A stretch of DNA of 64,000 bases from NCBI RefSeq assembly GCF_016026235.1, contig NZ_CP065613.1; one strand, given 5' to 3'. The notes beneath the pieces were generated by a model. It was not told where the DNA came from and searched no databases. It saw only the letters and a list, made by a program, of their open reading frames with translations. Source of the DNA: Escherichia coli. GTDB taxonomy: Bacteria > Pseudomonadota > Gammaproteobacteria > Enterobacterales > Enterobacteriaceae. Positions within the stretch are counted from its first letter, which is position 1, and each line of letters opens with the position of its first letter. A program made the position numbers and the translations under genes. Below, piece after piece: positions 1-60,671 of the stretch.

Positions 1-132
1 TGCAATAATGAAATAAGAGCAAACGAAGAAACTTTCAGAATTAGTCCCGGCGGCGCAGAAAATTTTGCTATTCGCCTCGCAAGAACGGAGAGCCGTCGAT
101 TGACACTAAGGGCGGAGTGACATAATTTCAGG

Positions 133-282
133 AGTGAGGGTTAGGGAGAGGTTTCCCCCTCCCCCTGGTGTTCTTAGTAAGCCTGGAAGCTAATCACTAA
201 GAGTATCACCAGTATGATGACGTGCTTCATCATAACCCTTTCCTTATTAAAAGCCCTCTTCTCCGGGAGAGGCTTTCCCGTT
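133..282 (+). ncRNA. sibA: SibA-like antisense antitoxin sRNA (type I TA), approximate ends
   Basis: Sigma70-like promoter TTGACA (100-105) and CATAAT (121-126); transcript fully overlaps the opposite-strand 19-codon ibs ORF; ends at hairpin CCTCTTC-TCCG-GGGAGAGG with U-rich tail (~253-282); ~250-bp paralogous repeat of 1788-1990. Confidence 0.5.
174..233 (-). CDS. ibsA: Ibs-family small hydrophobic type I toxin (19 aa, MMKHVIILVILLVISFQAY)
   Basis: Own translation of minus strand; ATG-ATG start with GGAAAGGG SD-like sequence; embedded antisense inside the Sib repeat; resembles K-12 IbsA from memory. Confidence 0.55.
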   Translation of the reverse strand: MMKHVIILVILLVISFQAY

Positions 283-492
283 TCAGCGTCCCGCTGAAAT
301 CATCGGCTTACCTCCTTTCGCCCTGAATGCAGTCTATCGCTAACGCGTGAATAAAATAGTTTCCTCTGTGATTATTGCGTAACGACTCGCAAAGAATATT
401 TGCTGGCAGGATCGCAGACTACAAAGCCTACGGATTGACAATCTTATCGTGAAGGCATACTTTCAGGAGTGAGGGTAGAGCGGGGTTTCCCC

Positions 493-1787
493 CTGAGGAA
501 TCCCCAGAAAACAAGACAGGCATAGTGAGATGTGATCTAATTGATTGTGCTAACAATTTCAAGGAGATCACCACTATGCCTGCACGTTCATTATGCCAAA
601 ATTTCCTTAACAACATACTGGCCCCTTTGCATCTTTACCGTCAAAAATCACTGATTGACGCAACTAATGCTGTAATAAATGGCGCTTCCCTCACACTTAC
701 CAGTATCGGGCGTCATTTAACCGGTACGGCATCAGTTAAAAACAAAATAAAGCGGGTGGATCGACTGTTGGGGAATCGACATTTGCAAAATGAGGTTTCC
801 ACCATTTTTCAGCGAATTACCCAAAAGATTACGCGGGGAATGTCTCGTGTTGTGATACTCATTGACTGGAGTGCTTATCATGCCTCTCGTTTTCAGCTTT
901 TGCGGGCAAGCCTGGCATGTGACGGGCGTTCTTTACCGTTGATGAGTTGTGTCGTTCCATCATCACAGACAGCGAATGCAGATGTACATGAGCGTTTTCT
1001 GGAATCGCTTGCTGAGTGCTTTTCCCCCGGGACTGATGTCATTGTTATTACAGATGCCGGTTTTCAGGGGCGATGGTTCCAACAGCTCCGCTCCCGTGGC
1101 TGGACCTATATTTGCCGGGTACTGGGCAATCATTATTACAATGTTGGTAATGGCTGGGAAAAGGTGTCGGACTCAGGCACAAAAGCATCAACGACAGCAA
1201 TTTATTTAGGTGAAGGCCTGCTGGGTCGAGATAAAAATGCACAACATGAAGGGCATTTTTATCTTTATAAAAGTAAGCCTAAAGGTCGTAGATTTAAACG
1301 CTCGAAGGAAAGAGCAACCAGACCATCGGTGACGGCTAAAGCTCGTACTGCCGGGAAATCACCATGGTTTATTTTCACAAACAGTACTGAGTTCTCGCCA
1401 AAACAGGTAATGAAATTATACAGCCGTAGAATGCAAATTGAGCAAAATTTCAGGGATGAAAAAAATCCTCGCTGGGGATTTGGACTACGGTTTGGTGCCA
1501 GTCATTCATCCGGGCGGGTCACGGTATTGAGTCTGATCGCAACATTAGCCAGTATCATTATGTGGTTAAGCGGTTTCAGTCTGGAAAACAAAGGGATACA
1601 TCATAAATATCAGGCAAATACAGTGAAGCACAGGCGAGTCATCTCGTTATTAAAACTGGCGGAGAATGTGATTCGACATTCTCCACTCATACTAAACACA
1701 CTGTCACTTGACGCAGGGCTGAAAGTTCTACAGCAACGGTATACCAATATGATAATGGTTTACTAAATTTTCTGGGGATCCCTCAGG
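493..1787 (+). mobile_element. IS10-like IS4-family insertion sequence, copy 1 (1295 bp)
   Basis: Imperfect terminal inverted repeats CTGAGGAATCCCCAGAAAAC (left) and CCTGAGGGATCCCCAGAAAA (right, reverse complement); 9-bp target site duplication GGTTTCCCC at 484-492 and 1788-1796; single transposase ORF. Confidence 0.85.
525..1766 (+). CDS. IS4-family (IS10-like) DDE transposase
   Basis: ORF track 413 aa; motifs KRVDRLLGNRHLQNE and FQANTVKHRRV align with IS10 transposase (KRIDRLLGNRHL, FQANTVRNRNV) from memory; GTG start at 525, alternative ATG at 573 (MPARS) gives an IS10-like length of 397 aa. Confidence 0.8.
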   Translation: MRCDLIDCANNFKEITTMPARSLCQNFLNNILAPLHLYRQKSLIDATNAVINGASLTLTSIGRHLTGTASVKNKIKRVDRLLGNRHLQNEVSTIFQRITQKITRGMSRVVILIDWSAYHASRFQLLRASLACDGRSLPLMSCVVPSSQTANADVHERFLESLAECFSPGTDVIVITDAGFQGRWFQQLRSRGWTYICRVLGNHYYNVGNGWEKVSDSGTKASTTAIYLGEGLLGRDKNAQHEGHFYLYKSKPKGRRFKRSKERATRPSVTAKARTAGKSPWFIFTNSTEFSPKQVMKLYSRRMQIEQNFRDEKNPRWGFGLRFGASHSSGRVTVLSLIATLASIIMWLSGFSLENKGIHHKYQANTVKHRRVISLLKLAENVIRHSPLILNTLSLDAGLKVLQQRYTNMIMVY

Positions 1788-1935
1788 GGTTTCCCCCGCC
1801 CTGGTAGCCTTAGTAAGCTGGCCAGCTAATGACTAAGAGCACCACGATGATGAGTAGCTTCATCATGACCCTTTCCTTATTTATGGCCCCTTCCTCGGGA
1901 GGGGCTTTCCCGTTTCAGCGTCCCGCTGAAATCGG
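1788..1935 (+). ncRNA. sibB: SibB-like antitoxin sRNA, 3' portion only; promoter and first ~25 nt (435-492) separated by the IS at 493-1787
   Basis: Sequence 468-492 plus 1797-1935 aligns colinearly with the sibA repeat (133-282); promoter TTGACA 435-440 and CATACT 456-461; terminator hairpin CCCCTTCC-TCGG-GAGGGG ~1888-1925. Confidence 0.5.
1810..1866 (-). CDS. ibsB: Ibs-family small hydrophobic type I toxin (18 aa, MMKLLIIVVLLVISWPAY)
   Basis: Own translation of minus strand; same context as ibsA in the second Sib repeat; ORF intact. Confidence 0.55.
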   Translation of the reverse strand: MMKLLIIVVLLVISWPAY

Positions 1936-2073
1936 CGGCTTACCTCCTTTCGCCATGCAAGCAGTCTATCGCTAACGCGTAGATAAAATAGTTTCCTGTG
2001 TTATTACTGGATGCGTGCTCGCAAATGTGCCCGTCATTCAGACGATTCCCGACAGTGTTTCATAATTCCTCCA

Positions 2074-2091
2074 TTTTTCTCCCTTATTGGC
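2074..2091 (+). promoter_or_regulatory. Putative BaeR box upstream of mdtA
   Basis: TTTTTCTCCCTTATTGGC resembles the BaeR consensus TTTTTCTCCATDATTGGC (from memory); ~55 bp upstream of the mdtA start. Confidence 0.5.
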
Positions 2092-2144
2092 TGGCTACAC
2101 TAGTATCATTCCGCGAAACGTTTCAGGAAGAGAAACTCTTAACG

Positions 2145-3392
2145 ATGAAAGGCAGTTATAAATCCCGTTGGGTAATCGTAATCGTGGTGGTTATCGCCGC
2201 CATCGCCGCATTCTGGTTCTGGCAAGGCCGCAATGACTCCCAGAGTGCAGCCCCAGGGGCGACGAAACAAGCGCAGCAATCGCCAGCGGGTGGTCGCCGT
2301 GGTATGCGTTCCGGCCCATTAGCCCCGGTTCAGGCGGCGACCGCCGTAGAACAGGCAGTTCCGCGTTACCTCACCGGGCTTGGCACCATTATCGCCGCTA
2401 ATACTGTTACGGTGCGCAGCCGCGTGGACGGTCAACTGATGGCGTTACATTTCCAGGAAGGCCAGCAGGTCAAAGCAGGCGATTTACTGGCAGAAATTGA
2501 CCCCAGCCAGTTCAAAGTTGCATTAGCACAAACCCAGGGCCAACTGGCAAAAGATAAAGCCACGCTTGCTAACGCCCGCCGTGATCTGGCGCGTTATCAG
2601 CAACTGGCAAAAACCAATCTCGTCTCCCGTCAGGAGCTGGATGCCCAACAGGCGCTGGTCAGTGAAACCGAAGGCACCATTAAGGCTGATGAAGCAAGCG
2701 TCGCCAGCGCGCAGTTGCAACTCGACTGGAGCCGCATCACCGCACCAGTCGATGGTCGCGTTGGTCTCAAGCAGGTTGATGTTGGTAACCAAATCTCCAG
2801 TGGTGATACCACCGGAATTGTGGTGATCACCCAGACGCATCCTATCGATTTAGTCTTTACCCTGCCGGAAAGCGATATCGCTACTGTAGTGCAGGCGCAA
2901 AAAGCCGGAAAACCGCTGGTGGTAGAAGCCTGGGATCGCACCAATTCGAAGAAATTAAGTGAAGGCACGCTGTTAAGCCTCGATAACCAAATCGATGCCA
3001 CAACCGGTACGATTAAAGTGAAAGCACGCTTTAATAATCAGGATGATGCGCTGTTTCCCAATCAGTTTGTTAACGCGCGCATGTTAGTCGACACCGAACA
3101 AAACGCCGTAGTGATCCCAACAGCCGCCCTGCAAATGGGCAATGAAGGCCATTTTGTCTGGGTGCTGAATAGCGAAAACAAGGTCAGCAAACATCTGGTG
3201 ACGCCGGGCATTCAGGACAGTCAGAAAGTGGTGATCCGTGCAGGTATTTCTGCGGGCGATCGCGTGGTGACAGACGGCATTGATCGCCTGACCGAAGGGG
3301 CGAAAGTGGAAGTGGTGGAAGCCCAGAGCGCCACCACTCCGGAAGAGAAAGCCACCAGCCGCGAATACGCGAAAAAAGGAGCACGCTCCTGA
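2145..3392 (+). CDS. mdtA: Multidrug efflux RND membrane fusion protein MdtA (415 aa)
   Basis: ORF track 1998-3392; start trimmed to [10 protein letters not shown] (ATG 2145) by recognition of K-12 MdtA; 4-bp overlap with mdtB. Confidence 0.9.
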
Positions 3393-6300
3393 TGCAGGTG
3401 TTACCCCCGAGCAGCACAGGCGGCCCGTCGCGCCTGTTTATTATGCGTCCTGTCGCCACCACGCTGCTGATGGTGGCGATCTTACTCGCCGGGATTATCG
3501 GTTATCGCGCCCTGCCCGTTTCGGCGCTGCCGGAAGTGGACTATCCGACCATTCAGGTGGTCACGCTCTACCCAGGTGCCAGCCCGGATGTCATGACCTC
3601 TGCCGTTACCGCGCCGCTCGAACGCCAGTTCGGGCAGATGTCTGGCCTGAAACAGATGTCGTCGCAAAGTTCCGGCGGTGCGTCAGTTATCACTTTGCAG
3701 TTCCAGCTAACATTACCGCTCGATGTCGCCGAGCAGGAAGTGCAGGCCGCGATTAACGCTGCGACCAACTTGTTGCCGAGCGATCTGCCTAACCCGCCGG
3801 TTTACAGCAAAGTGAACCCGGCAGATCCGCCGATCATGACGCTCGCCGTCACCTCAACCGCCATGCCGATGACGCAAGTGGAAGATATGGTGGAAACCCG
3901 CGTCGCGCAGAAAATCTCGCAGATTTCCGGCGTCGGCCTGGTGACGCTTTCCGGCGGTCAGCGTCCGGCTGTTCGCGTCAAACTTAACGCTCAGGCGATT
4001 GCCGCCCTCGGCCTGACCAGCGAAACCGTGCGCACCGCCATTACCGGCGCTAACGTTAACTCGGCAAAAGGTAGCCTCGACGGCCCTTCCCGTGCGGTCA
4101 CGCTTTCCGCGAACGACCAGATGCAATCCGCCGAAGAGTATCGCCAGCTAATCATCGCCTACCAGAACGGCGCGCCAATTCGTCTGGGCGATGTCGCAAC
4201 TGTAGAGCAAGGTGCAGAAAACAGCTGGCTCGGCGCGTGGGCGAACAAAGAACAGGCCATTGTGATGAATGTTCAGCGCCAGCCCGGTGCTAACATTATC
4301 TCCACCGCCGACAGCATTCGGCAGATGCAGCCACAGCTCACTGAGAGTCTGCCGAAATCGGTGAAGGTGACAGTGCTTTCCGATCGCACCACCAATATCC
4401 GCGCATCCGTCGATGATACTCAGTTTGAATTGATGATGGCTATCGCGCTGGTAGTCATGATTATCTACCTGTTTTTGCGCAATATTCCGGCGACCATCAT
4501 TCCCGGTGTTGCTGTACCGCTGTCGTTAATCGGCACTTTCGCGGTTATGGTGTTTCTCGATTTTTCAATCAATAACCTGACACTGATGGCGTTAACTATC
4601 GCCACCGGATTCGTGGTCGATGACGCCATCGTGGTGATCGAAAACATTTCCCGCTATATCGAAAAAGGCGAAAAACCGTTGGCGGCGGCGCTCAAGGGCG
4701 CAGGTGAAATCGGCTTTACCATTATCTCGCTGACCTTCTCACTGATTGCGGTGTTGATCCCACTGCTGTTTATGGGCGATATCGTCGGGCGACTGTTCCG
4801 CGAATTTGCTATTACCCTGGCGGTAGCGATTTTGATCTCAGCGGTGGTGTCGCTGACCCTGACACCGATGATGTGCGCGCGGATGCTCAGCCAGGAGTCG
4901 TTGCGTAAACAGAACCGCTTCTCCCGTGCCTCGGAAAAAATGTTCGACAGGATAATCGCCGCCTATGGTCGTGGACTGGCGAAAGTGCTGAATCATCCGT
5001 GGCTGACCTTAAGCGTGGCACTCAGCACGCTGCTGCTTAGCGTGCTGCTGTGGGTGTTCATTCCGAAAGGTTTCTTCCCGGTACAGGACAATGGCATTAT
5101 TCAGGGCACTTTGCAGGCACCGCAATCCAGCTCCTTTGCCAATATGGCCCAGCGACAACGCCAGGTCGCGGACGTGATTTTGCAGGATCCGGCAGTGCAA
5201 AGCCTGACCTCATTTGTTGGCGTTGATGGCACTAACCCGTCGCTGAATAGTGCACGTTTACAAATCAACCTCAAACCGTTGGATGAACGTGATGATCGGG
5301 TGCAAAAAGTCATCGCCCGTCTGCAAACGGCGGTAGATAAAGTGCCGGGCGTCGATCTCTTCCTGCAACCAACGCAGGATCTGACTATTGATACTCAGGT
5401 CAGCCGCACCCAGTACCAGTTTACCTTGCAGGCCACCTCACTGGATGCGCTCAGTACCTGGGTGCCACAGTTGATGGAAAAACTCCAGCAACTGCCACAG
5501 CTTTCTGATGTCTCCAGCGACTGGCAGGACAAAGGGCTGGTGGCGTATGTCAATGTTGATCGCGACAGCGCCAGCCGTCTGGGGATCAGCATGGCGGATG
5601 TCGATAACGCCCTGTACAACGCGTTTGGTCAGCGACTGATTTCCACTATTTATACTCAGGCTAACCAGTATCGCGTGGTGCTGGAGCACAACACCGAAAT
5701 TACCCCGGGCCTCGCGGCGCTGGATACCATTCGCCTGACCAGTAGCGACGGCGGCGTGGTGCAGTTAAGCTCAATTGCCAAAGTTGAACAGCGTTTTGCG
5801 CCGCTTTCCATCAACCATCTGGATCAGTTCCCGGTAACGACCATCTCCTTTAACGTGCCGGATAACTATTCGCTGGGCGATGCGGTGCAGGCGATTATGG
5901 ACACCGAAAAGACGCTGAATCTGCCGGTGGATATCACCACGCAGTTCCAGGGCAGCACCCTCGCCTTCCAGTCGGCGCTGGGCAGCACTGTCTGGCTGAT
6001 TGTCGCGGCGGTGGTGGCGATGTATATCGTGCTCGGCATTCTGTACGAGAGCTTTATTCACCCGATCACCATTCTCTCGACGCTACCCACCGCAGGAGTC
6101 GGCGCACTGCTGGCGTTAATGATTGCCGGTAGCGAACTGGATGTGATTGCGATTATCGGCATTATTTTGCTGATCGGTATCGTGAAGAAGAACGCCATCA
6201 TGATGATCGACTTCGCGCTGGCTGCTGAGCGCGAGCAAGGCATGTCGCCGCGCGATGCCATCTACCAGGCTTGTCTGTTGCGTTTTCGTCCGATCCTGAT

Positions 6301-19388: not shown

Positions 19389-20162
19389 CTACACCGTAAT
19401 TAATTTCACCCGTGTCTTCTGCAATGCCAGTTTATCCACCTCAGACACAGCATCATCGGTAATAATAATGTCAATTTTTTCGATTGGCAGTACCTGATTA
19501 AAACCGCGACGGTTAAATTTCGATGAATCGAGAACGGCAATCACTTTATTAGCGGCTGTGACCATCGCACCGCTAACGGAATAACCCTCATTAAAGGTCG
19601 TAATACCATTAACCGCATCAATACCATCAGCACCGACAAACATTAAATCGGCATTAATATCCTGCAGGGAACGTTCAGCAATAGATCCATGCATAGATCG
19701 CGTTTTATGGCGGACCGTGCCACCGCAGACGACCAGAGTAATGTCTTTATTTTCGGAAAGGGCAAACGCAGCCGGGAGACTGTTGGTAATCACCGTGATA
19801 TTTTTGGCGGTCATTAATCCTTCGGCGATAAGCATTGTGGTACTTCCGCTGTCGAGAATAACGGTCATCCCTTCATGGATCATTTTGACTGCCGCCTGCG
19901 CTATTCTGTTTTTCGGCGCGCTGGCGAGCTGAAATCGCTCTTTAAACCCGACTTCCTGGGTCTCGGTTTCACTATTACCGGACATTATTTTCGCCGCACC
20001 GCCATGAAAGCGCGTAACCACGCCTTTTTGTTCGAGAAAGCGCAAATCGGCACGGATTGTCGCTTCCGAGGCAGCAAATACTCCCGCCAGATCCTGAACA
20101 AGCACGGTTCCCTGTTCATTCACTAATTGGATGATCTTATTCCTTCGCTCGAATGAATTCAT
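19389..20162 (-). CDS. gatR: DeoR-family galactitol operon repressor GatR, uninterrupted
   Basis: ORF track 19389-20168; start probably MNSFERRNK; HTH N-terminus and sugar-binding C-terminus; intact here, whereas I recall K-12 gatR is IS-interrupted. Confidence 0.85.
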   Translation of the reverse strand: MNSFERRNKIIQLVNEQGTVLVQDLAGVFAASEATIRADLRFLEQKGVVTRFHGGAAKIMSGNSETETQEVGFKERFQLASAPKNRIAQAAVKMIHEGMTVILDSGSTTMLIAEGLMTAKNITVITNSLPAAFALSENKDITLVVCGGTVRHKTRSMHGSIAERSLQDINADLMFVGADGIDAVNGITTFNEGYSVSGAMVTAANKVIAVLDSSKFNRRGFNQVLPIEKIDIIITDDAVSEVDKLALQKTRVKLITV

Positions 20163-20267
20163 CGTCATTTACCCATATTCAATTGTGGCTAGTGTAAACG
20201 AAGGGGGACCATTGGTGAATGATCTGTTTTGCACAATACCGGGCCAGCATCACGCTGGCCCGCGGTT

Positions 20268-21308
20268 TCAGGGAATGAGCAACACTTTGCCCGGCATGGC
20301 ATTACGAGCGATGTCACGCACCGCCTGGGCGAAGCTTTCAAAGCTTCCACGGTGAGCGATTAATGGCTCCAGGCTTAACTTACGTTCTGTCAGCAACCGG
20401 CTCGCCGTTTCCCACTCCTGCCCCGGCCAAGGGCTGGAGTAGTTCATCCAACTGCCGATAACCGTCAGCTCTTTACGCAATATTTTGCCAAACGTTGCCG
20501 ATGTTAAATGCAGATCCTGATGCAACGTGCCCACCAGCGCCAGTTGGGCATGAGGACCGGCAATCTCTACCGCCAGTTCGACAGTTTGCGGTACGCCAGC
20601 CGTCTCGAGGATAAGCTGATTAAAGCGCAGTTCGCGTAAAACGCTCTGCATTTGCGGCGCGCTCATTTCGCTACTGTTAAATGTTTGCATCGCACCGAAA
20701 GATTTTGCCAGTGCCAGTTTTTCTGAGCTAATGTCGATAGCCGTCACACTCTTTGCTCCCAGCGCGACAGCGCACTGAATAGCCAGCAGGCCAATGGTTC
20801 CGGCACCAATAATAATAACGTTTTTATTCTCACAACCTTGCGCTAAATGAAAAGCATGCAGTCCAACGGTAATCGGCTCAATAAAAGCCCCATCCTCAAT
20901 AGGCATATCCGTGGGTAGAGCAAAGACATTTTTTCGCTTAACGACAATATATTCAGCAAATCCACCATCACGCCGCGAGCCAATAAAATCATATTTTGCG
21001 CACTGGGAATAAAACCCTTTCAAACACTCTGGACAAGTAAAACAGGGTAATAACGGCACACAGGCAACCGCATCGCCAAGGTGTAAATCATCAACACCGG
21101 ATCCCACCGCATCAATATAGCCGCTAAATTCATGGCCTAACGTTATTGGATAATAATGTGCACCATTTTTAAATATCCTGGGTAAATCGGAACCACATAA
21201 GCCCGAGCTGGCAATTTTTACCCGTACCTCATCCTGATGTTTAATTTCAGGAATGACGCTTTCTGCAACGCGCACGATACCATCAGTATCATTCACCACT
21301 GATTTCAT
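20268..21308 (-). CDS. gatD: Galactitol-1-phosphate 5-dehydrogenase GatD (346 aa)
   Basis: ORF track; zinc alcohol dehydrogenase family; gat operon context. Confidence 0.9.
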   Translation of the reverse strand: MKSVVNDTDGIVRVAESVIPEIKHQDEVRVKIASSGLCGSDLPRIFKNGAHYYPITLGHEFSGYIDAVGSGVDDLHLGDAVACVPLLPCFTCPECLKGFYSQCAKYDFIGSRRDGGFAEYIVVKRKNVFALPTDMPIEDGAFIEPITVGLHAFHLAQGCENKNVIIIGAGTIGLLAIQCAVALGAKSVTAIDISSEKLALAKSFGAMQTFNSSEMSAPQMQSVLRELRFNQLILETAGVPQTVELAVEIAGPHAQLALVGTLHQDLHLTSATFGKILRKELTVIGSWMNYSSPWPGQEWETASRLLTERKLSLEPLIAHRGSFESFAQAVRDIARNAMPGKVLLIP

Positions 21309-21340
21309 AAAAACTCCTGATTGTTAAGGGGGATAAACTC

Positions 21341-22635
21341 CTGAGGAATCCCCAGAAAACAAGACAGGCATAGTGAGATGTGATCTAATTGATTGTGCTA
21401 ACAATTTCAAGGAGATCACCACTATGCCTGCACGTTCATTATGCCAAAATTTCCTTAACAATATACTGGCCCCTTTGCATCTTTACCGTCAAAAATCACT
21501 GATTGACGCAACTAATGCTGTAATAAATGGCGCTTCCCTCACACTTACCAGTATCGGGCGTCATTTAACCGGTACGGCATCAGTTAAAAACAAAATAAAG
21601 CGGGTGGATCGACTGTTGGGGAATCGACATTTGCAAAATGAGGTTTCCACCATTTTTCAGCGAATTACCCAAAAGATTACGCGGGGAATGTCTCGTGTTG
21701 TGATACTCATTGACTGGAGTGCTTATCATGCCTCTCGTTTTCAGCTTTTGCGGGCAAGCCTGGCATGTGACGGGCGTTCTTTACCGTTGATGAGTTGTGT
21801 CGTTCCATCATCACAGACAGCGAATGCAGATGTACATGAGCGTTTTCTGGAATCGCTTGCTGAGTGCTTTTCCCCCGGGACTGATGTCATTGTTATTACA
21901 GATGCCGGTTTTCAGGGGCGATGGTTCCAACAGCTCCGCTCCCGTGGCTGGACCTATATTTGCCGGGTACTGGGCAATCATTATTACAATGTTGGTAATG
22001 GCTGGGAAAAGGTGTCGGACTCAGGCACAAAAGCATCAACGACAGCAATTTATTTAGGTGAAGGCCTGCTGGGTCGAGATAAAAATGCACAACATGAAGG
22101 GCATTTTTATCTTTATAAAAGTAAGCCTAAAGGTCGTAGATTTAAACGCTCGAAGGAAAGAGCAACCAGACCATCGGTGACGGCTAAAGCTCGTACTGCC
22201 GGGAAATCACCATGGTTTATTTTCACAAACAGTACTGAGTTCTCGCCAAAACAGGTAATGAAATTATACAGCCGTAGAATGCAAATTGAGCAAAATTTCA
22301 GGGATGAAAAAAATCCTCGCTGGGGATTTGGACTACGGTTTGGTGCCAGTCATTCATCCGGGCGGGTCACGGTATTGAGTCTGATCGCAACATTAGCCAG
22401 TATCATTATGTGGTTAAGCGGTTTCAGCCTGGAAAACAAAGGGATACATCATAAATATCAGGCAAATACAGTGAAGCACAGGCGAGTCATCTCGTTATTA
22501 AAACTGGCGGAGAATGTGATTCGACATTCTCCACTCATACTAAACACACTGTCACTTGACGCAGGGCTGAAAGTTCTACAGCAACGGTATACCAATATGA
22601 TAATGGTTTACTAAATTTTCTGGGGATCCCTCAGG
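21341..22635 (+). mobile_element. IS10-like IS4-family insertion sequence, copy 2 (1295 bp)
   Basis: Same TIRs as copy 1; 9-bp target site duplication GATAAACTC at 21332-21340 and 22636-22644; sits in the gatC-gatD junction. Confidence 0.85.
21373..22614 (+). CDS. IS4-family (IS10-like) DDE transposase
   Basis: Protein identical to copy 1 in the ORF track; at least two synonymous DNA differences from copy 1. Confidence 0.8.
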   Translation: MRCDLIDCANNFKEITTMPARSLCQNFLNNILAPLHLYRQKSLIDATNAVINGASLTLTSIGRHLTGTASVKNKIKRVDRLLGNRHLQNEVSTIFQRITQKITRGMSRVVILIDWSAYHASRFQLLRASLACDGRSLPLMSCVVPSSQTANADVHERFLESLAECFSPGTDVIVITDAGFQGRWFQQLRSRGWTYICRVLGNHYYNVGNGWEKVSDSGTKASTTAIYLGEGLLGRDKNAQHEGHFYLYKSKPKGRRFKRSKERATRPSVTAKARTAGKSPWFIFTNSTEFSPKQVMKLYSRRMQIEQNFRDEKNPRWGFGLRFGASHSSGRVTVLSLIATLASIIMWLSGFSLENKGIHHKYQANTVKHRRVISLLKLAENVIRHSPLILNTLSLDAGLKVLQQRYTNMIMVY

Positions 22636-22659
22636 GATAAACTCCCCCTCAGTTAAAAA

Positions 22660-24015
22660 TTATTCTGCGAGAACGGCTTTCTCTTGTTTAATAAAACCAC
22701 GCGCTCTACGCCAGGTAATGAAAATACCGGTCAGATAAATTGCGCCGATAATAATGAAACCGGGAATATTTTGCGGGGAGAAAACCTGAATCAGTAACCA
22801 GGTAATGGGAGAACCGCCCTGATCCATTGAAGCCACCATACCCCCGGCTTTTAACGCCCCAGCATTAGCCGCCAGTTGGGTGTGCAAACCAATAGTTTGC
22901 GTCGCGATCCACAGAGTGATGCTCATGATGATGACACCCGAGATTAAGGTGCGGAACAGATTTCCACGATGCACGGCGACTGCCATCGCCACAAAGAAGC
23001 CGATGGTGGCAAGATCGCCAAACGGCAGCACCTGATTACCCGGAACACAAACAGCAATTAAAATGGTGAGCGGGATAAAAATCAGGCTTGCCGATACCAC
23101 CGCCGTATGCCCCAGCAGTAATGCGGGATCCAGGCCAATCAGGAACTCCTGACCGCCGAACTTCGCCTGTAAACGACTACGGGCCTGCTTAGCGATGGGC
23201 GTTAAACCATCCATGATGGGTTTAATCACCCGTGGCATTAGCAGCATCACTGCCGCCGTTTTTACCGCCAGCTGCAATACACCTTTGACATCGTAACCCG
23301 CGAGGATGCCGATAATCAGCCCCATCACAAAACCCACGGTGACAGGCTCGCCAAATGGACCAAATTTGCGCTGAATATCGTCGGCGCTAAATTTAATTCG
23401 GTTAACGCCTGGGATTTTCTCGATGATAGCATCGACCAGCACCGCAATCGGCCCCATATACGCCGACGTACCGTGCGGAATAGCAATACCTTCCAGCTCA
23501 AAGAAATTTCGGGTATCGCGGGCAAACCAGTCGCCGAGCTTATAAACAAACGCCGCGTGAATTACCACACCTGCCATCCCTATCATCCATGAACCGGTTG
23601 CCAGATGCAGCAACGCGCCGGTGAAGGTCATATGCCAGATATTCCAGATATCAACATTTACCACCCGCGTCATACGGGTCAGTAACATCGCCACGTTAAC
23701 CAGAATCGCAATCGGAATCGCCACCAGCGCAATTTGCGACGCCCAGGTCATTGGTGAAGAGCCCGGCCAGCCGACATCGACCACATGCAGATTCAGGTCG
23801 AAATTTTCCGCCATCGCTTTCGCCGCCGGACCAATGGAATCCAGCATTAAGCCAATCACAAGGCCAATGCCAACAAAGCCAATCCCGATATGCAGACCCG
23901 CTTTAAAGCAATCGCCTGCCTTCATGCCTAATATTTTAGAAAAAATAATGATGACAATCGGAAGCATCACCGTAGGGCCGAGGTCGAGAATATAACGCAT
24001 GACTTCTGAAAACAT
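22660..24015 (-). CDS. gatC: PTS galactitol-specific EIIC GatC (451 aa)
   Basis: ORF track; polytopic membrane protein; recognised. Confidence 0.9.
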   Translation of the reverse strand: MFSEVMRYILDLGPTVMLPIVIIIFSKILGMKAGDCFKAGLHIGIGFVGIGLVIGLMLDSIGPAAKAMAENFDLNLHVVDVGWPGSSPMTWASQIALVAIPIAILVNVAMLLTRMTRVVNVDIWNIWHMTFTGALLHLATGSWMIGMAGVVIHAAFVYKLGDWFARDTRNFFELEGIAIPHGTSAYMGPIAVLVDAIIEKIPGVNRIKFSADDIQRKFGPFGEPVTVGFVMGLIIGILAGYDVKGVLQLAVKTAAVMLLMPRVIKPIMDGLTPIAKQARSRLQAKFGGQEFLIGLDPALLLGHTAVVSASLIFIPLTILIAVCVPGNQVLPFGDLATIGFFVAMAVAVHRGNLFRTLISGVIIMSITLWIATQTIGLHTQLAANAGALKAGGMVASMDQGGSPITWLLIQVFSPQNIPGFIIIGAIYLTGIFITWRRARGFIKQEKAVLAE

Positions 24016-24018
24016 AGG

Positions 24019-24303
24019 TCACCCCTGTAAGATAGTCAGAATTTTATTTTGTAATGCTTCGATACCGACACCAGAAATAAAAGGCATGCCGTGAACTAAC
24101 GGAATATCGCCAAAACTACGATCCACTTTGGCAGTGGTGCATATCAAATGCACACCATCCATATAGGTTTCTATTTCATTAACCCGACACTGGATTAATT
24201 CAACAGGAATATTATGATTCTGACACAACTCTTTAATTTCTTCTGCCGCCATCGTAGAGGTCGCAACCGCGCCTCCGCAAGCGACAATAATCTTGCGTTT
24301 CAT
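24019..24303 (-). CDS. gatB: PTS galactitol-specific EIIB GatB (94 aa)
   Basis: ORF track; operon context. Confidence 0.88.
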
Positions 24304-24333
24304 AAATAGTCCTTTTTATTGTTACAGAGGGAT

Positions 24334-24786
24334 TTATTCGTCTGAATCTAAAACATACTTTGTGAAGTATTCCTTTAACTGGGTTTCAGGAAGAGTGATT
24401 AGTGTCTCGACGATATCGGGCTGTTGTAACTTGCCAAATAAACAGCGTAAAAGTTTCAATTGCTGCTGCGGATTTTCCACAATCAACGCAATAACCAACG
24501 ATACCTCCACGTCGTTATCATCATCCGCTTGCTGAAAATGAACTTTATTTGTTGGCCTTAACAGATAAATGGCTGACGACTTAGCATGAATCGCCTCACA
24601 ATGCGGTATTGCAATGGCGTGCTGCTCAAGCATTATCCCGGTAGGGAATTCTGCTTCTCTGGCAATTAATGCCTGTGGCCAGGTATCATGAACCACACCT
24701 TTGGCGAGCATCTCATTACCGATATGGGTTAAAACTTCGCTACGATCGACAAAAGAAATTCCGCTACGAACAAACAGGTTAGTCAT
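24334..24786 (-). CDS. gatA: PTS galactitol-specific EIIA GatA (150 aa)
   Basis: ORF track; operon context. Confidence 0.88.
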   Translation of the reverse strand: MTNLFVRSGISFVDRSEVLTHIGNEMLAKGVVHDTWPQALIAREAEFPTGIMLEQHAIAIPHCEAIHAKSSAIYLLRPTNKVHFQQADDDNDVEVSLVIALIVENPQQQLKLLRCLFGKLQQPDIVETLITLPETQLKEYFTKYVLDSDE

Positions 24787-24795
24787 ATACCGTCC

Positions 24796-26995
<2,200 letters not shown>

Positions 26996-52951: not shown

Positions 52952-54246
52952 CCTGAGGGATCCCCAGAAAATTTAGTAAACCATTATCATATTGGTATAC
53001 CGTTGCTGTAGAACTTTCAGCCCTGCGTCAAGTGACAGTGTGTTTAGTATGAGTGGAGAATGTCGAATCACATTCTCCGCCAGTTTTAATAACGAGATGA
53101 CTCGCCTGTGCTTCACTGTATTTGCCTGATATTTATGATGTATCCCTTTGTTTTCCAGGCTGAAACCGCTTAACCACATAATGATACTGGCTAATGTTGC
53201 GATCAGACTCAATACCGTGACCCGCCCGGATGAATGACTGGCACCAAACCGTAGTCCAAATCCCCAGCGAGGATTTTTTTCATCCCTGAAATTTTGCTCA
53301 ATTTGCATTCTACGGCTGTATAATTTCATTACCTGTTTTGGCGAGAACTCAGTACTGTTTGTGAAAATAAACCATGGTGATTTCCCGGCAGTACGAGCTT
53401 TAGCCGTCACCGATGGTCTGGTTGCTCTTTCCTTCGAGCGTTTAAATCTACGACCTTTAGGCTTACTTTTATAAAGATAAAAATGCCCTTCATGTTGTGC
53501 ATTTTTATCTCGACCCAGCAGGCCTTCACCTAAATAAATTGCTGTCGTTGATGCTTTTGTGCCTGAGTCCGACACCTTTTCCCAGCCATTACCAACATTG
53601 TAATAATGATTGCCCAGTACCCGGCAAATATAGGTCCAGCCACGGGAGCGGAGCTGTTGGAACCATCGCCCCTGAAAACCGGCATCTGTAATAACAATGA
53701 CATCAGTCCCGGGGGAAAAGCACTCAGCAAGCGATTCCAGAAAACGCTCATGTACATCTGCATTCGCTGTCTGTGATGATGGAACGACACAACTCATCAA
53801 CGGTAAAGAACGCCCGTCACATGCCAGGCTTGCCCGCAAAAGCTGAAAACGAGAGGCATGATAAGCACTCCAGTCAATGAGTATCACAACACGAGACATT
53901 CCCCGCGTAATCTTTTGGGTAATTCGCTGAAAAATGGTGGAAACCTCATTTTGCAAATGTCGATTCCCCAACAGTCGATCCACCCGCTTTATTTTGTTTT
54001 TAACTGATGCCGTACCGGTTAAATGACGCCCGATACTGGTAAGTGTGAGGGAAGCGCCATTTATTACAGCATTAGTTGCGTCAATCAGTGATTTTTGACG
54101 GTAAAGATGCAAAGGGGCCAGTATGTTGTTAAGGAAATTTTGGCATAATGAACGTGCAGGCATAGTGGTGATCTCCTTGAAATTGTTAGCACAATCAATT
54201 AGATCACATCTCACTATGCCTGTCTTGTTTTCTGGGGATTCCTCAG
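52952..54246 (-). mobile_element. IS10-like IS4-family insertion sequence, copy 3 (1295 bp, inverted)
   Basis: Same TIRs; 9-bp target site duplication GCGAAAATC at 52943-52951 and 54247-54255. Confidence 0.85.
52973..54214 (-). CDS. IS4-family (IS10-like) DDE transposase
   Basis: Same protein as copies 1 and 2; ORF-track entry 52973-54301 is extended N-terminally past the IS end, so it is trimmed to the position equivalent to the copy 1 start. Confidence 0.8.
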   Translation of the reverse strand: MRCDLIDCANNFKEITTMPARSLCQNFLNNILAPLHLYRQKSLIDATNAVINGASLTLTSIGRHLTGTASVKNKIKRVDRLLGNRHLQNEVSTIFQRITQKITRGMSRVVILIDWSAYHASRFQLLRASLACDGRSLPLMSCVVPSSQTANADVHERFLESLAECFSPGTDVIVITDAGFQGRWFQQLRSRGWTYICRVLGNHYYNVGNGWEKVSDSGTKASTTAIYLGEGLLGRDKNAQHEGHFYLYKSKPKGRRFKRSKERATRPSVTAKARTAGKSPWFIFTNSTEFSPKQVMKLYSRRMQIEQNFRDEKNPRWGFGLRFGASHSSGRVTVLSLIATLASIIMWLSGFSLENKGIHHKYQANTVKHRRVISLLKLAENVIRHSPLILNTLSLDAGLKVLQQRYTNMIMVY

Positions 54247-55725
54247 GCGAAAATCCCCCCTTTACCGTTGTTTTATCAACCTCCATTATGGACTCGCCCA
54301 AAACTCAAAAATAGCAGCAAGGTACTGCCAGATAACGCCCTCCTCCACCTCGGTGAAATGCTCCGCTTCCCTCAGGAAGAGGCCCTGTATCCGGGATTAT
54401 TGCAGGTGAAAGATGCCTGTACCGCCGACTCACTGGCTGAATTTGCCTGGGATCTGTTTACCGCCTGGCTGACTGCGGGCGCACCGTCGAAAGAGAGTTG
54501 GGCGTTCACTGCGTTAGGCGTTCTTGGTAACGATGACACCGCCCGCAAACTGACGCCATTAATACGCGCCTGGCCTGGTGAATCCCAGCATAAACGCGCC
54601 ACCGTTGGGTTGGATATTCTCGCCGCTATCGGTAGTGATATCGCCCTGATGCAGCTTAACGGTATTGCCCAGAAACTGAAATTCAAAGCATTACAGGAGC
54701 GGGCAAAAGAAAAAATTGCCGACATTGCCGAAAGCCGCGAACTCACGGTGGCAGAGCTTGAAGATCGGTTAGCACCGGATCTCGGTCTGGATGATAACGG
54801 TTCGTTGCTGCTGGATTTCGGCTCACGCCAGTTCACCGTCAGCTTTGATGAAACCTTAAAACCGTTTGTGCGTGATGTTTCTGGCAGCCGTCTGAAAGAC
54901 CTGCCCAAACCAAACAAAAGCGATGATGAATCACAGGCGAACGATGCTGTTAACCGCTACAAACTGCTGAAAAAAGATGCGCGTACCGTCGCCGCCCAGC
55001 AGGTAGCAAGGCTGGAATCCGCCATGTGCCTGCGTCGCCGCTGGTCACCGGAAAACTTTCAGCTCTTCCTGGTTGAGCATCCGCTAGTTCGCCACTTAAC
55101 CCGCCGTCTGATTTGGGGCGTTTATAGCGCCGAAAACCAGCTACTGGCCTGTTTCCGGGTAGCGGAAGATAACAGCTACAGCACCGCTGACGATGATCTT
55201 TTCACCCTGCCGGAAGGCGATATCTCTGTTGGTATTCCTCACGTTCTGGAAATATCACCGACGGATGCCGCCGCATTTGGGCAGCTTTTTGCCGACTACG
55301 AACTGCTACCGCCGTTCCGCCAACTCGACCGTAACAGTTACGCCCTGACAGAAACCGAGCGCAATGCCAGCGAACTGACCCGCTGGGCAGGCAGAAAATG
55401 CCCGAGCGGTCGGGTAATGGGGCTGGCGAATAAAGGCTGGATAAAGGGCGAACCACAGGATGGAGGCTGGATCGGCTGGATGATCAAACCTCTGGGCCGC
55501 TGGTCGTTAATCATGGAAATCGATGAAGGCTTTGCGGTAGGCATGTCGCCAGCCGAACTGAGTGCCGAGCAACTCTTAAGCAAGCTGTGGCTATGGGAAG
55601 GCAAAGCGGAAAGCTATGGCTGGGGGAGTAATTCAACACAGGAAGCGCAGCTCTCCGTACTCGATGCCATCACCGCCAGCGAGCTAATTAACGATATTGA
55701 AGCCCTGTTTGAATAAGGAAAGAGC

Positions 55726-59418: not shown

Positions 59419-59739
59419 ATGATCGTGCAAAAAGAGCTGGTTGCTATTTACGATTATGAGGTCCCTGTACCTGAAGATCCGTTTTCCTTCAGACTTGAGA
59501 TCCATAAATGCTCTGAATTATTTACAGGTTCCGTCTATCGACTGGAGCGATTCCGGCTACATCCAACATTTCATCAACGTGATCGAGAAGATGCTGACCC
59601 GCTAATAAATGATGCGTTGATTTATATAAGAGATGAGTGTATTGATGAGCGGAAATTACGAGGTGAATCACCTGAAACTGTAATAGCAATTTTTAATCGT
59701 GAACTACAGAATATATTCATCCAACAAATAGAAAAATAG
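59419..59739 (+). CDS. yehK: YehK (106 aa)
   Basis: ORF track; recognised. Confidence 0.8.
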   Translation: MIVQKELVAIYDYEVPVPEDPFSFRLEIHKCSELFTGSVYRLERFRLHPTFHQRDREDADPLINDALIYIRDECIDERKLRGESPETVIAIFNRELQNIFIQQIEK

Positions 59740-59792
59740 CTTTATTAAAGGGGGAAACGGTATTCCCCCTTAGATGCGTTTCAATTTGCCCG

Positions 59793-59882
59793 TTACTTCA
59801 ACAAATCAATCAACCGTAACAGAGCCACTAATAACTCCAGTACGGCAATGAGCACGATTAACTTTTGTGTCAGCGTGTCCAT
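59793..59882 (-). CDS. zorO: Type I toxin, ZorO-like (29 aa, MDTLTQKLIVLIAVLELLVALLRLIDLLK)
   Basis: Own translation; AAGGAG SD 5 nt upstream of the ATG; single predicted TM helix; matches my recollection of the Zor toxins of E. coli O157:H7. Confidence 0.7.
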   Translation of the reverse strand: MDTLTQKLIVLIAVLELLVALLRLIDLLK

Positions 59883-60063
59883 CCGCTCTCCTTATTAAGG
59901 AGCGCAACACCAGCACCTTACCCTTACACTGCCTGTCGATACTGGTTTACGTATGTTGGTACGAAACGTTGCTCTCCGGATCAGAGCACCGCCTGCGGCA
60001 CCACCCGTCCAGCAGCCAGGACTTAAAATTGGTCCGATCCGGCACAACCTCCCAACGGGCAGG

Positions 60064-60203: not shown

Positions 60204-60400
60204 TTTCTGCGATCTACTTTCCAGATATTTTTTGCCAATAGCCCACCATAAATATTCACATCCCGGTCAAATGGTGCGTTGAATATAAAATCGATGAACT
60301 TATAAATAAACATGAGTTATATGATGAATTAATAAAAACAGTAATCATTTTATTAAAGGGGGAAGCGGTTTTCCCCCTTAGATGCGTTTCAATTTGCCCG

Positions 60401-60490
60401 TTACTTCAACAAATCAATCAACTGTAACAGAGCTACTAATAGCTCCAGTACAGCAATGAGCACGGTTAACTTTTGTGTCAGCGTGTCCAT
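60401..60490 (-). CDS. zorP: Type I toxin, ZorP-like (29 aa, MDTLTQKLTVLIAVLELLVALLQLIDLLK)
   Basis: Own translation of the second repeat unit; 2 aa differences from unit 1 (I9T, R23Q). Confidence 0.7.
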   Translation of the reverse strand: MDTLTQKLTVLIAVLELLVALLQLIDLLK

Positions 60491-60671
60491 CCGCTCTCCT
60501 TATTAAGGAGCGCAACACCAGCACCTTACCCTTACACTGCCTGTCGATACTGGTTTACGTATGTTGGACCACGATGTTGCACTCCGGATCAGGGCACCAC
60601 CTGCAGCACCACCCGTCCGGTAGCCAGGACTTGAAATAGGTTCGATCCGGCGCAACGTCCCAACGGTCTGG

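What the first reader, a model, noticed from the sequence alone, without database searches (positions are those of the whole stretch)
21332..22644. IS10-like insertion in the 48-bp gatC-gatD junction of the galactitol operon
The operon is transcribed gatY to gatD on the minus strand. The IS sits between gatC and gatD with a clean TSD, so gatD (galactitol-1-phosphate dehydrogenase) is separated from the operon promoter by 1.3 kb of IS carrying an opposite-strand transposase gene. If gatD is not expressed while the PTS genes are, galactitol-1-phosphate would accumulate, giving galactitol sensitivity rather than simple non-utilisation.
Basis: inference. Interest (0 to 1): 0.45.

Follow-up and report, generated by a model that had tools for sequence, protein, structure and literature searches.

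The report
ISEc60 insertion between gatC and gatD
A catalogued mobile element (ISEc60) sits between two genes of the galactitol-utilisation operon of an enteroinvasive E. coli lineage; it probably cuts the last enzyme gene, gatD, off from the operon promoter, which is an ordinary kind of insertional gene decay in this group of pathogens.

Summary
A 1294-bp IS4-family element lies at window 21341-22634, flanked by a 10-bp target duplication (GGATAAACTC). It is inside the 47-bp gatC-gatD spacer, with its transposase gene on the opposite strand to the gat genes.

It is ISEc60, not IS10: 99.8% nucleotide identity to RefSeq ISEc60 copies, and only 36% amino-acid identity to the IS10A transposase. 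All gat reading frames are intact.

None of 5426 complete E. coli genomes has this insertion. About a dozen draft assemblies do, including EIEC ATM460 (O143:H26). It is therefore a fixed marker of one enteroinvasive lineage. That lineage is IS-rich, with six IS copies in this 64-kb window.

About 1.35 kb of untranslated antisense RNA now separates gatD from the operon promoter.

This end carries a conserved stem-loop over the transposase start codon and a candidate outward antisense promoter, and it faces gatD. gatD may therefore receive some constitutive, GatR-independent transcription. A hairpin followed by a U-rich tract probably limits it.

Verdict: an ordinary polar IS insertion. Interest is low.

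The parts
21341..22634 (+). ISEc60 insertion sequence (IS4 family), 1294 bp. Orientation is given by the transposase gene.
   Evidence: 99.8% nucleotide identity to RefSeq-annotated ISEc60 copies. Ends defined from 10 copies. Coordinates verified.
21331..21340 (.). Left copy of the 10-bp target-site duplication, GGATAAACTC.
   Evidence: Empty-site comparison. Ends resolved with copies L003, L007 and L008. Checked.
22635..22644 (.). Right copy of the 10-bp target-site duplication, GGATAAACTC.
21341..21359 (+). Left terminal inverted repeat, CTGAGGAATCCCCAGAAAA. This is the transposase 5' end and it abuts gatD.
22616..22634 (-). Right terminal inverted repeat, CTGAGGGATCCCCAGAAAA read on the minus strand. 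It abuts the 3' end of gatC.
21424..22614 (+). ISEc60 transposase CDS, 396 aa, intact. The RBS AGGAG is at 21410-21414.
   Evidence: NF033591, 360 bits. 100% amino-acid identity to the annotated ISEc60 transposase on pINV of CFSAN029787. PF01609 on the same product in L014.
21365..21430 (-). RNA-OUT-like stem-loop, read on the minus strand. It is an inverted repeat that encloses the transposase RBS and ATG. It is a candidate antisense RNA and also a candidate fold-back element.
   Evidence: Inverted repeats I7 and I8. Fold of -35.9 kcal/mol with z = -5.7. Pairing is 96.9% on the minus strand against 90.7% on the plus strand, with 2 covarying pairs, in 5 relatives. Same position relative to the ATG as Rfam RNA-OUT in IS10A.
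21438..21446 (-). Candidate outward (pOUT-like) extended -10, TGGCATAAT. The predicted transcription start is about 21430-21431, reading towards gatD.
   Evidence: Read from the sequence. Conserved as TGACATACT in ISSfl1 and L013. Same offset from the ATG as the IS10 pOUT -10. Not tested experimentally.
21354..21364 (-). U-rich tract UCUUGUUUUCU immediately 3' of the stem-loop. It is a possible intrinsic terminator of the antisense RNA and partly overlaps the IR.
   Evidence: Conserved in all 5 relatives.
22507..22534 (-). Terminator-like hairpin met by gat-operon transcripts about 100 nt after they enter the IS in antisense orientation.
   Evidence: 11 pairs, tail CAGTTTTAAT. This is a weak consensus match only.
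20268..21308 (-). gatD, galactitol-1-phosphate 5-dehydrogenase, 346 aa, intact. The RBS at 21314-21318 is retained. 32 nt separate the IS end from the ATG.
   Evidence: NF007642, 726 bits against a cut-off of 550. The identical protein occurs in IS-free strains..
22660..24015 (-). gatC, galactitol PTS subunit IIC, 451 aa, intact. Its stop codon lies 25 nt from the IS.
   Evidence: TIGR00827, 711 bits. Identical to GatC of strain 300709..
24019..26947 (-). gatB (24019-24303), gatA (24334-24786), gatZ (24796-26058) and gatY (26087-26941/26947). All are full length and lie upstream in the operon.
19389..20168 (-). gatR, the DeoR-family repressor, intact.
   Evidence: Identical to GatR in L015.

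Best explanation
This is one copy of ISEc60, an IS4-family insertion sequence built like IS10. It transposed into a small G+C-rich hairpin (GGGGGATAAACTCCCCC) in the 47-bp gatC-gatD spacer and duplicated 10 bp. This hairpin matches the kind of site the element prefers.

The host is an enteroinvasive E. coli lineage of the O143:H26 type (EIEC clade 1). This lineage is undergoing IS expansion, and the insertion is fixed in it.

Shown:
- the identity of the element, its boundaries and its orientation;
- that all gat genes are intact;
- that the insertion is shared across several assemblies.

Inferred, for transcripts from the gatY promoter: they must now cross about 1.35 kb of untranslated antisense IS RNA before reaching gatD. 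This RNA has no open frame longer than 78 codons, several stretches with more C than G, and one terminator-like hairpin. Rho-dependent and intrinsic termination should therefore strongly reduce galactitol-induced gatD expression. This is classical IS polarity.

Inferred, for transcripts from the element: the end facing gatD carries an IS10-type regulatory module. It has a conserved stem-loop over the transposase start codon and a candidate outward antisense promoter about 124 nt upstream of the gatD ATG. Whatever gatD expression remains is probably low, constitutive and independent of GatR. A hairpin plus U-tract at the IS end limits it.

Predicted phenotype: dulcitol (galactitol)-negative or slow. 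The cells may also be galactitol-sensitive when the intact GatABC system is induced.
For: Identity and anatomy:
-.

Target preference:
- The ten copies in L003-L008 and the window have flanks of the form GGGAT(N3-4)CC, often within hairpins.

Lineage:
- No complete E. coli genome holds the insertion.
- The identical junction is present in GCA_031665325.1 (100% over 9041 bp), in GCA_014155105.1, which is EIEC ATM460 O143:H26, and in GCA_008180225.1 plus similar places.

IS load:
- Three ISEc60, two IS4 and one IS1 in 64 kb.

Intact genes:
-.

Untranslated antisense stretch, C>G windows and hairpin:
-.

IS10-like 5' module:
-.
- IS10 Pout is reported to read into neighbouring genes at about 10% of the lacUV5 promoter level, and IS1999 Pout drives blaOXA-48 (PMC9330008; PMC4574204).

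Biological context:
- Dulcitol fermentation is positive in 0-0.4% of Shigella and 34% of EIEC isolates (PMC7604320).
- gatD disrupted by a prophage in an otherwise intact operon abolishes growth on galactitol in C. rodentium (PMC3072379).
Against: - No expression or growth data exist for this lineage. Polarity, promoter activity and phenotype are all inferred.
- The simple promoter scan finds no consensus promoter facing gatD. The same scan also misses the known pOUT of IS10A, so this silence is uninformative.
- The candidate -10 lies in coding sequence, so its conservation may reflect the Cys-Gln codons rather than promoter function.
- The covariation support rests on only 5 sequences and 2 covarying pairs. 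7-12 of 500 shuffles reach the observed covariation score.
- Rfam's RNA-OUT model does not match ISEc60.
- All gat genes have stayed intact in the lineage. This is equally compatible with a still-functional pathway or with too little time for decay.
Confidence: 0.7

Rival explanations
1. The insertion is functionally silent. Enough transcription reaches gatD, either by read-through from the gat promoter or from the outward antisense promoter of the IS. The strain still ferments galactitol and is not galactitol-sensitive.
For: - The IS end facing gatD has IS10-like pOUT geometry.
- IS10 Pout transcripts reach adjacent genes (PMC9330008).
- The gatD RBS and 32 nt of its native leader are retained.
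- All gat ORFs remain intact in assemblies from an isolate labelled 69-3363 through to recent submissions.
- 34% of EIEC isolates are dulcitol-positive.
Against: - The strong hairpin followed by UCUUGUUUUCU at the IS end looks like an intrinsic terminator.
- The 1.35 kb of untranslated antisense RNA is a classical substrate for Rho-dependent polarity.
- A constitutive weak promoter is unlikely to match induced operon levels.
- Gene intactness over a few decades carries no information, because fewer than one mutation is expected in 7 kb (inference).
Confidence: 0.25
2. The insertion was positively selected as a way to lose or down-tune galactitol catabolism in the gut, rather than being a neutral by-product of IS expansion.
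For: - Loss-of-function mutations in the gat operon, including IS insertions, sweep repeatedly when E. coli K-12 colonises the mouse gut (PMC5850726).
- Dulcitol-negativity is nearly universal in Shigella.
- The insertion is fixed in the lineage.
Against: - In the mouse experiments, selection for the gat-negative phenotype required constitutive expression through a disrupted gatR. With a functional gatR, gat-negative mutants did not emerge (PMC5850726). Here gatR is intact.
- The site matches the element's own target preference.
- The window carries five other IS copies, so chance insertion followed by drift in a bottlenecked pathogen lineage is sufficient.
Confidence: 0.12
3. The apparent insertion is an assembly or collapse artefact caused by a multi-copy repeat.
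For: The element is multi-copy, with 3 copies in the window that differ by 1-2 nt. Short-read contigs break inside it, as in L023.
Against: - Both junctions show a perfect 10-bp duplication of a sequence that is present once in empty sites.
- The same structure is spanned in independent assemblies, including a PacBio one.
- The gat copy has a private nucleotide, T at position 123 of the 1296-bp copy frame (window 21462), against C in the two other window copies.
Confidence: 0.01

Closest known systems
IS10 / Tn10 insertions (polar, with outward promoter pOUT and antisense RNA-OUT)
   Same: - IS4-family DDE transposase and termini that begin CTGA.
- A stem-loop over the transposase RBS and ATG at the same offset from the ATG: the RNA-OUT 5' end is at ATG+7 in IS10A (L009 408, ATG at 401), and the ISEc60 stem starts at ATG+6.
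- A candidate antisense promoter just inside the coding region that reads out through the nearer end.
- Insertions expected to be polar, apart from pOUT-driven read-out (PMC9330008).
   Different: - Only 36% amino-acid identity.
- 1294 bp against 1329 bp.
- A 10-bp target duplication against 9 bp.
- Target GGGAT...CC instead of GCTNAGC (the IS10 values are from my own knowledge).
- No match to Rfam RF00240.
- The ISEc60 hairpin is followed by a U-rich tract, which suggests tighter termination.
ISSfl1 (Shigella flexneri virulence-plasmid IS4-family element) and unnamed relatives (L011, L012, L013)
   Same: - 51.6% amino-acid identity.
- Near-identical terminal repeats.
- The same 5' stem-loop with compensatory changes.
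- The same TGnCATAMT motif.
   Different: These are distinct elements at 50-85% identity. None of them lies in the gat operon.
gatD::prophage CRP49 in Citrobacter rodentium ICC168
   Same: A mobile element removes gatD function within an otherwise intact gat operon of an enteric pathogen that is undergoing genome degradation. The strain cannot grow on galactitol (PMC3072379).
   Different: There the prophage interrupts the gatD coding sequence. Here gatD is intact and only its transcriptional coupling is affected.
IS insertions in gatR, gatZ and gatC of E. coli K-12 (laboratory strain and mouse-gut evolution)
   Same: The gat locus is a recurrent target of IS insertions that change the galactitol phenotype (PMC5850726).
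   Different: Those insertions lie in coding regions. They give constitutive expression (gatR) or loss of function (gatZ, gatC). They involve other IS elements and arose in experimental populations.
mtlD-type hexitol-phosphate toxicity (mannitol sensitivity of mtlD mutants)
   Same: A PTS imports and phosphorylates a hexitol. Without the dehydrogenase the hexitol-phosphate accumulates and is toxic (PMC11784389 abstract).
   Different: It concerns a different operon. For galactitol the sensitivity of gatD mutants rests on older genetics (Lengeler 1977), which I could not read here. It has not been shown for this strain.

Membership tests
ISEc60 (IS4 family insertion sequence) | Near-identical nucleotide sequence to catalogued ISEc60 copies | tested here: met
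   99.8% identity over 1297-1306 nt to copies annotated 'IS4-like element ISEc60 family transposase'. The transposase is 100% identical to that on pINV of CFSAN029787.
ISEc60 (IS4 family insertion sequence) | DDE (IS4-type) transposase | tested here: met
   NF033591 transpos_IS4_2, 360.5 bits against a cut-off of 152. PF01609 DDE_Tnp_1 is recorded for the same product.
ISEc60 (IS4 family insertion sequence) | Terminal inverted repeats and a direct target duplication | tested here: met
   19-bp IRs matching at 18 of 19 positions. The 10-bp duplication is verified against an empty site and against nine other copies.
IS10 proper | High sequence identity to IS10 or its transposase | tested here: not met
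   36% amino-acid identity to the IS10A transposase.
IS10 proper | 9-bp target duplication | tested here: not met
   10 bp, from informative copies L003, L007 and L008. 11 bp is not excluded. 9 bp is excluded by L008.
IS10 proper | RNA-OUT antisense RNA (Rfam RF00240) | tested here: not met
   No hit at E<=10 in window 20200-24100. The positive control, IS10A, scores 85.9 bits.
IS10-type antisense control module (works like RNA-IN/RNA-OUT) | Stable stem-loop spanning the transposase RBS and start codon, on the antisense strand | tested here: met
   -35.9 kcal/mol with z = -5.7. The same fold appears in 4 relatives with z from -4.5 to -5.7. The geometry matches RNA-OUT in IS10A.
IS10-type antisense control module (works like RNA-IN/RNA-OUT) | Evolutionary support for the structure, specific to one strand | tested here: inconclusive
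   Pairing is 96.9% on the minus strand with 10 extra pair types, against 90.7% and 4 on the plus strand. Two pairs covary. Only 5 sequences were available, and 7-12 of 500 shuffles reach the observed score.
IS10-type antisense control module (works like RNA-IN/RNA-OUT) | Active outward promoter (pOUT) that produces the antisense RNA and reads out into flanking DNA | not testable with these tools
   Only a sequence candidate exists: TGGCATAAT at 21446 to 21438, conserved as TGACATACT in relatives. The consensus scan is blind even to the known IS10A pOUT.
gatYZABCD galactitol operon | gatD and gatC orthologues in the canonical gene order gatY-Z-A-B-C-D-R | tested here: met
   NF007642 at 726 bits and TIGR00827 at 711 bits. 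Colinear with the annotated locus of strain 300709, with 0-8 nt differences per gene.
Polar IS insertion | Reduced expression of the promoter-distal gene | not testable with these tools
   Only indirect features are available: 1351 nt between the gatC stop and the gatD start, no ORF longer than 78 codons on that strand, C>G windows, and one terminator-like hairpin.

The most novel reading that the evidence does not exclude
The ISEc60/ISSfl1 clade carries an uncatalogued RNA-OUT-type antisense RNA that Rfam does not recognise. In this lineage its outward promoter has been co-opted as the sole promoter of gatD. The galactitol pathway would then be split into a GatR-regulated uptake and aldolase module and a constitutive, IS-driven dehydrogenase. 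The level of gatD expression, and so whether galactitol is tolerated or toxic, would be set by read-through of the antisense RNA's terminator.
Probability: 0.2. Interest if true: 0.35.

Novelty: already known. Interest (0 to 1): 0.15.

Why it matters
It matters little beyond the strain.

- **Decay of a metabolic operon.** The insertion is one more example of IS-mediated decay or rewiring of a metabolic operon in the Shigella/EIEC pathotype. Loss of dulcitol fermentation is already the rule there.
- **Lineage marker.** The junction is a clean marker for the O143:H26-type EIEC lineage. It also offers a genetic explanation if that lineage is dulcitol-negative.
- **Antisense module.** The side observation is that ISEc60, ISSfl1 and their relatives have an IS10-like antisense module that Rfam misses. 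This is a small annotation gain. It is also a reminder that the orientation of such an element decides whether the downstream gene is silenced or merely uncoupled from its regulator.

Tried and rejected
- **Rfam scan of the locus.** No RNA-OUT hit, only chance-level matches (sX14, sR28, ST7-OT3). The control on IS10A worked, so the miss is explained by sequence divergence.
- **Consensus promoter/terminator scan.** No gatD-ward promoter was found. Five promoter-like sites against 3.0 +/- 1.4 expected is not above chance. The same scan misses the known pOUT of IS10A, so it was discarded as evidence either way.
- **Hybrid junction promoter (IS -35 plus flank -10).** Examined by eye. The best candidates match 2-3 of 6 positions in the -35 and would start inside the RBS. 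Rejected.
- **9-bp (IS10-like), 8-bp and 12-bp readings of the duplication.** Rejected using copies whose flanks differ from the IS termini (L003, L007, L008).
- **Exact-junction search of JGI metagenome contigs.** 0 hits.
- **Search of 5426 complete E. coli genomes for the same insertion.** None found.
- **Classical gat papers (Lengeler 1975/1977; Nobelmann & Lengeler 1996).** Attempts to read them failed because they are not held. The statement that gatD mutants are galactitol-sensitive therefore rests on my own recollection and on the mtlD analogy.
- **Lineage-specific damaging substitutions in Gat proteins.** None found. All differences fall within natural variation.
- **Rho-site heuristics.** Suggestive only.
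Full report
**1. What is in the sequence**

Between gatD (20268-21308, minus strand) and gatC (22660-24015, minus strand) lies 1351 bp instead of the usual 47 bp. I aligned both flanks to the empty site of E. coli strain 300709. There, GGGGGATAAACTCCCCC is present once, and 1304 bp have been added in the window.

The added DNA has 19-bp terminal inverted repeats, CTGAGGAATCCCCAGAAAA and CTGAGGGATCCCCAGAAAA. It carries one intact ORF on the + strand (21424-22614, 396 aa), preceded by AGGAG. The IR pattern occurs six times in the window, against zero expected. This defines three copies that differ by 1-2 nt: 492-1787 (+), the gat copy, and 52952-54247 (-), in the 1296-bp frame, which counts one extra base at each end.

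The 12-bp direct repeat seen by eye overlaps the IS termini. I therefore compared ten copies from the window and from six other genomic sites. Copies L003, L007 and L008 have flanks that differ from the IS ends. They show that the element ends at CTGAGG...CCTCAG. The IS is 1294 bp (21341-22634), and the duplication is 10 bp, GGATAAACTC, at 21331-21340 and 22635-22644.

**2. Which element it is**

Megablast against 5426 complete E. coli genomes gives 99.8% identity to copies that RefSeq annotates as 'IS4-like element ISEc60 family transposase'. The protein scores 360 bits on NF033591, an IS4-family model.

It is 100% identical to the ISEc60 transposase on the invasion plasmid of EIEC CFSAN029787. 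It is 51.6% identical to ISSfl1 of Shigella flexneri and only 36% identical to IS10A.

'IS10-like' is therefore correct for family and architecture, but the element is not IS10. It also fails three IS10 criteria:
- a 10-bp rather than a 9-bp duplication;
- a different target sequence;
- no match to Rfam RNA-OUT, although that model finds IS10A at 85.9 bits.

**3. Where it comes from**

No complete E. coli genome has the gatC-gatD insertion. An exact-protein look-up with GatD found the identical junction in several draft assemblies:
- GCA_031665325.1, 100% identical over 9041 bp;
- GCA_014155105.1, with one 1-bp difference;
- GCA_008180225.1, whose contig breaks inside the IS;
- eight similar places that were not shown.

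JAALAC010000003.1 is contig 3 of EIEC strain ATM460 (69-3363, Kentucky, O143:H26, phylogroup E, EIEC clade 1) (PMC8354535). The window therefore comes from that enteroinvasive lineage, and the insertion is a fixed lineage marker, not an artefact.

The window holds six IS copies in 64 kb: three ISEc60, two IS4 and one IS1. This fits the IS expansion typical of Shigella and EIEC.

**4. Why this site**

All ISEc60 duplications examined resemble GGGAT(N3-4)CC and are often part of short G+C-rich hairpins. The gatC-gatD spacer hairpin fits this pattern. The element's own target preference is enough to explain the position.

**5. State of the gat genes**

GatD and GatC score above the curated NCBIfam cut-offs. 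gatY, Z, A, B, C, D and R are all full length. Their few amino-acid differences from strain 300709 fall within the variation seen in IS-free strains. The identical GatD and GatR proteins occur elsewhere without the IS.

The gatD RBS and 32 nt of its native leader are retained. The gatC stop codon is 25 nt from the IS. The only lesion is therefore loss of transcriptional coupling.

**6. Likely effect: polarity (inferred)**

A transcript from the gatY promoter now enters the IS antisense to the transposase gene. Several features favour premature termination:
- From the gatC stop to the gatD start there are 1351 nt with no open frame longer than 78 codons.
- Several 80-nt windows have more C than G.
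- A terminator-like hairpin lies about 100 nt inside the IS, at 22534 to 22507.

By established knowledge of IS and Tn10 polarity, Rho-dependent termination should remove most induced gatD expression.

**7. Likely effect: outward transcription from the IS (inferred)**

The end that abuts gatD is the transposase 5' end. In IS10, this end carries pOUT within the first 100 bp. pOUT makes the antisense RNA-OUT, and its transcripts extend into neighbouring genes at about 10% of the lacUV5 promoter level. IS1999 Pout drives blaOXA-48 (PMC9330008; also PMC4574204).

ISEc60 has the same layout:
- An inverted repeat (21365-21375 with 21420-21430, plus inner arms) encloses the RBS and ATG.
- On the minus strand it folds into a long stem-loop: -35.9 kcal/mol with z = -5.7 for the hairpin alone, and -44.7 kcal/mol with z = -3.9 for the 138-nt stretch that runs on into the gatD leader.
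- The same fold appears in ISSfl1 and two other relatives, with z from -4.5 to -5.7. It resembles the RNA-OUT fold of IS10A.
- In five relatives, 96.9% of cells pair on the minus strand, with ten extra pair types that are mostly G-U. On the plus strand 90.7% pair, with four extra types. Two pairs change on both sides: U-A, A-U, C-G at one, and G-C, A-U at the other. This asymmetry points to selection on the antisense RNA, but the sample is small.
- An extended -10, TGGCATAAT, lies on the minus strand at 21446 to 21438. Its last base is at ATG+15, against ATG+16 for the inferred IS10 pOUT -10. The predicted start at about 21430 is the first base of the stem. This matches the way RNA-OUT starts at ATG+7 in IS10A.
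- The motif is TGACATACT in ISSfl1 and L013. It overlaps Cys-Gln codons, so its conservation is not independent evidence.

Immediately 3' of the hairpin is UCUUGUUUUCU, conserved in all relatives. The antisense RNA therefore probably ends in an intrinsic terminator, and read-out into gatD may be weaker than for IS10.

The net inference is that gatD is uncoupled from galactitol induction. It keeps at most a low, constitutive supply of transcripts from the IS.

**8. Phenotype and context**

gatR is intact, so GatABC would be made only when galactitol is present. If GatD is limiting at that point, galactitol-1-phosphate should accumulate.

This parallels the documented toxicity of mannitol-1-phosphate in mtlD mutants (PMC11784389 abstract).

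Natural precedents exist:
- In Citrobacter rodentium a prophage in gatD, within an otherwise intact operon, abolishes growth on galactitol (PMC3072379).
- Dulcitol fermentation is positive in 0.4% of S. sonnei, 0% of S. flexneri and 34% of EIEC isolates (PMC7604320).
- The gat locus is a recurrent IS target in gut-evolving K-12. However, gat-negative mutants were selected there only when gatR was already disrupted (PMC5850726). This argues against strong positive selection here.

**9. Verdict**

Polarity is likely. Strict silencing of gatD is less certain, because the pOUT-like end of the element faces the gene. The phenotype is unknown.

This is an ordinary insertion of a catalogued IS in an IS-rich pathogen lineage, and it is already present in public genomes. 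The only mildly new point is that the ISEc60/ISSfl1 clade appears to carry an RNA-OUT-type module that Rfam does not recognise. Interest is low.

Noticed in passing
window 492-1787 (+), 52952-54247 (-); about 13.2-14.65 kb and 48.26-49.7 kb; about 41.3-41.8 kb: Besides the gat copy, the window holds two more ISEc60 copies that differ from it by 1-2 nt. It also holds two IS4 copies: one between baeR and yegP, and a second whose transposase ORF is shorter (349 against 448 aa). There is one IS1 as well. Six IS in 64 kb indicates IS expansion in this EIEC lineage.
   Followed up: partly
window 482-491/1788-1797, 21331-21340/22635-22644, 52942-52951/54248-54257; loci L002-L008: ISEc60 shows a marked target preference. 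The 10-bp duplications look like GGGAT(N3-4)CC and are usually flanked by further G and C runs that form small hairpins. The preferred target resembles the inner part of the element's own terminal repeat (GGGGATTCC).
   Followed up: partly
window 1-5600 against L024 (RMDEC332), also H62-H64: The ISEc60 copy between ibsA and the next ibs gene, upstream of mdtA, sits at the same base, in the same orientation and with the same duplication in EIEC strains RMDEC332/364, CFSAN029787 and VL46. The right flank, however, differs at 52 of about 3800 positions. This means either an insertion hot spot or transfer of the region by recombination.
   Followed up: partly
L014 position 361, window about 24949 (gatZ): EIEC ATM460 has a 1-bp deletion (TTGAAGG to TTGAGG) in gatZ, at about codon 370 of 420, relative to the window and to GCA_031665325.1. 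It could be a secondary inactivating mutation in the gat operon of one lineage member, or a PacBio assembly error.
   Followed up: partly
L002 (FDAARGOS_943, 38 ISEc60 places) and L006 (RMDEC364): The copy between nupC and a PTS fructose IIC gene in FDAARGOS_943 has no matching duplication, which suggests IS-mediated deletion or recombination. In RMDEC364, two ISEc60 copies lie in tandem, separated by only 10 bp.
   Followed up: no
window 59723-60022 and 60331-60630: A pair of 300-nt direct repeats, 91% identical and 608 bp apart, near the right end of the window. It was not examined.
   Followed up: no
L009-L013 and window 21341-21446: Rfam's RNA-OUT family (RF00240) detects IS10A. It does not detect the structurally analogous antisense stem-loops of ISEc60, ISSfl1 or the Salmonella Infantis plasmid relative. 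This is a gap in family coverage for IS4-family antisense RNAs.
   Followed up: partly
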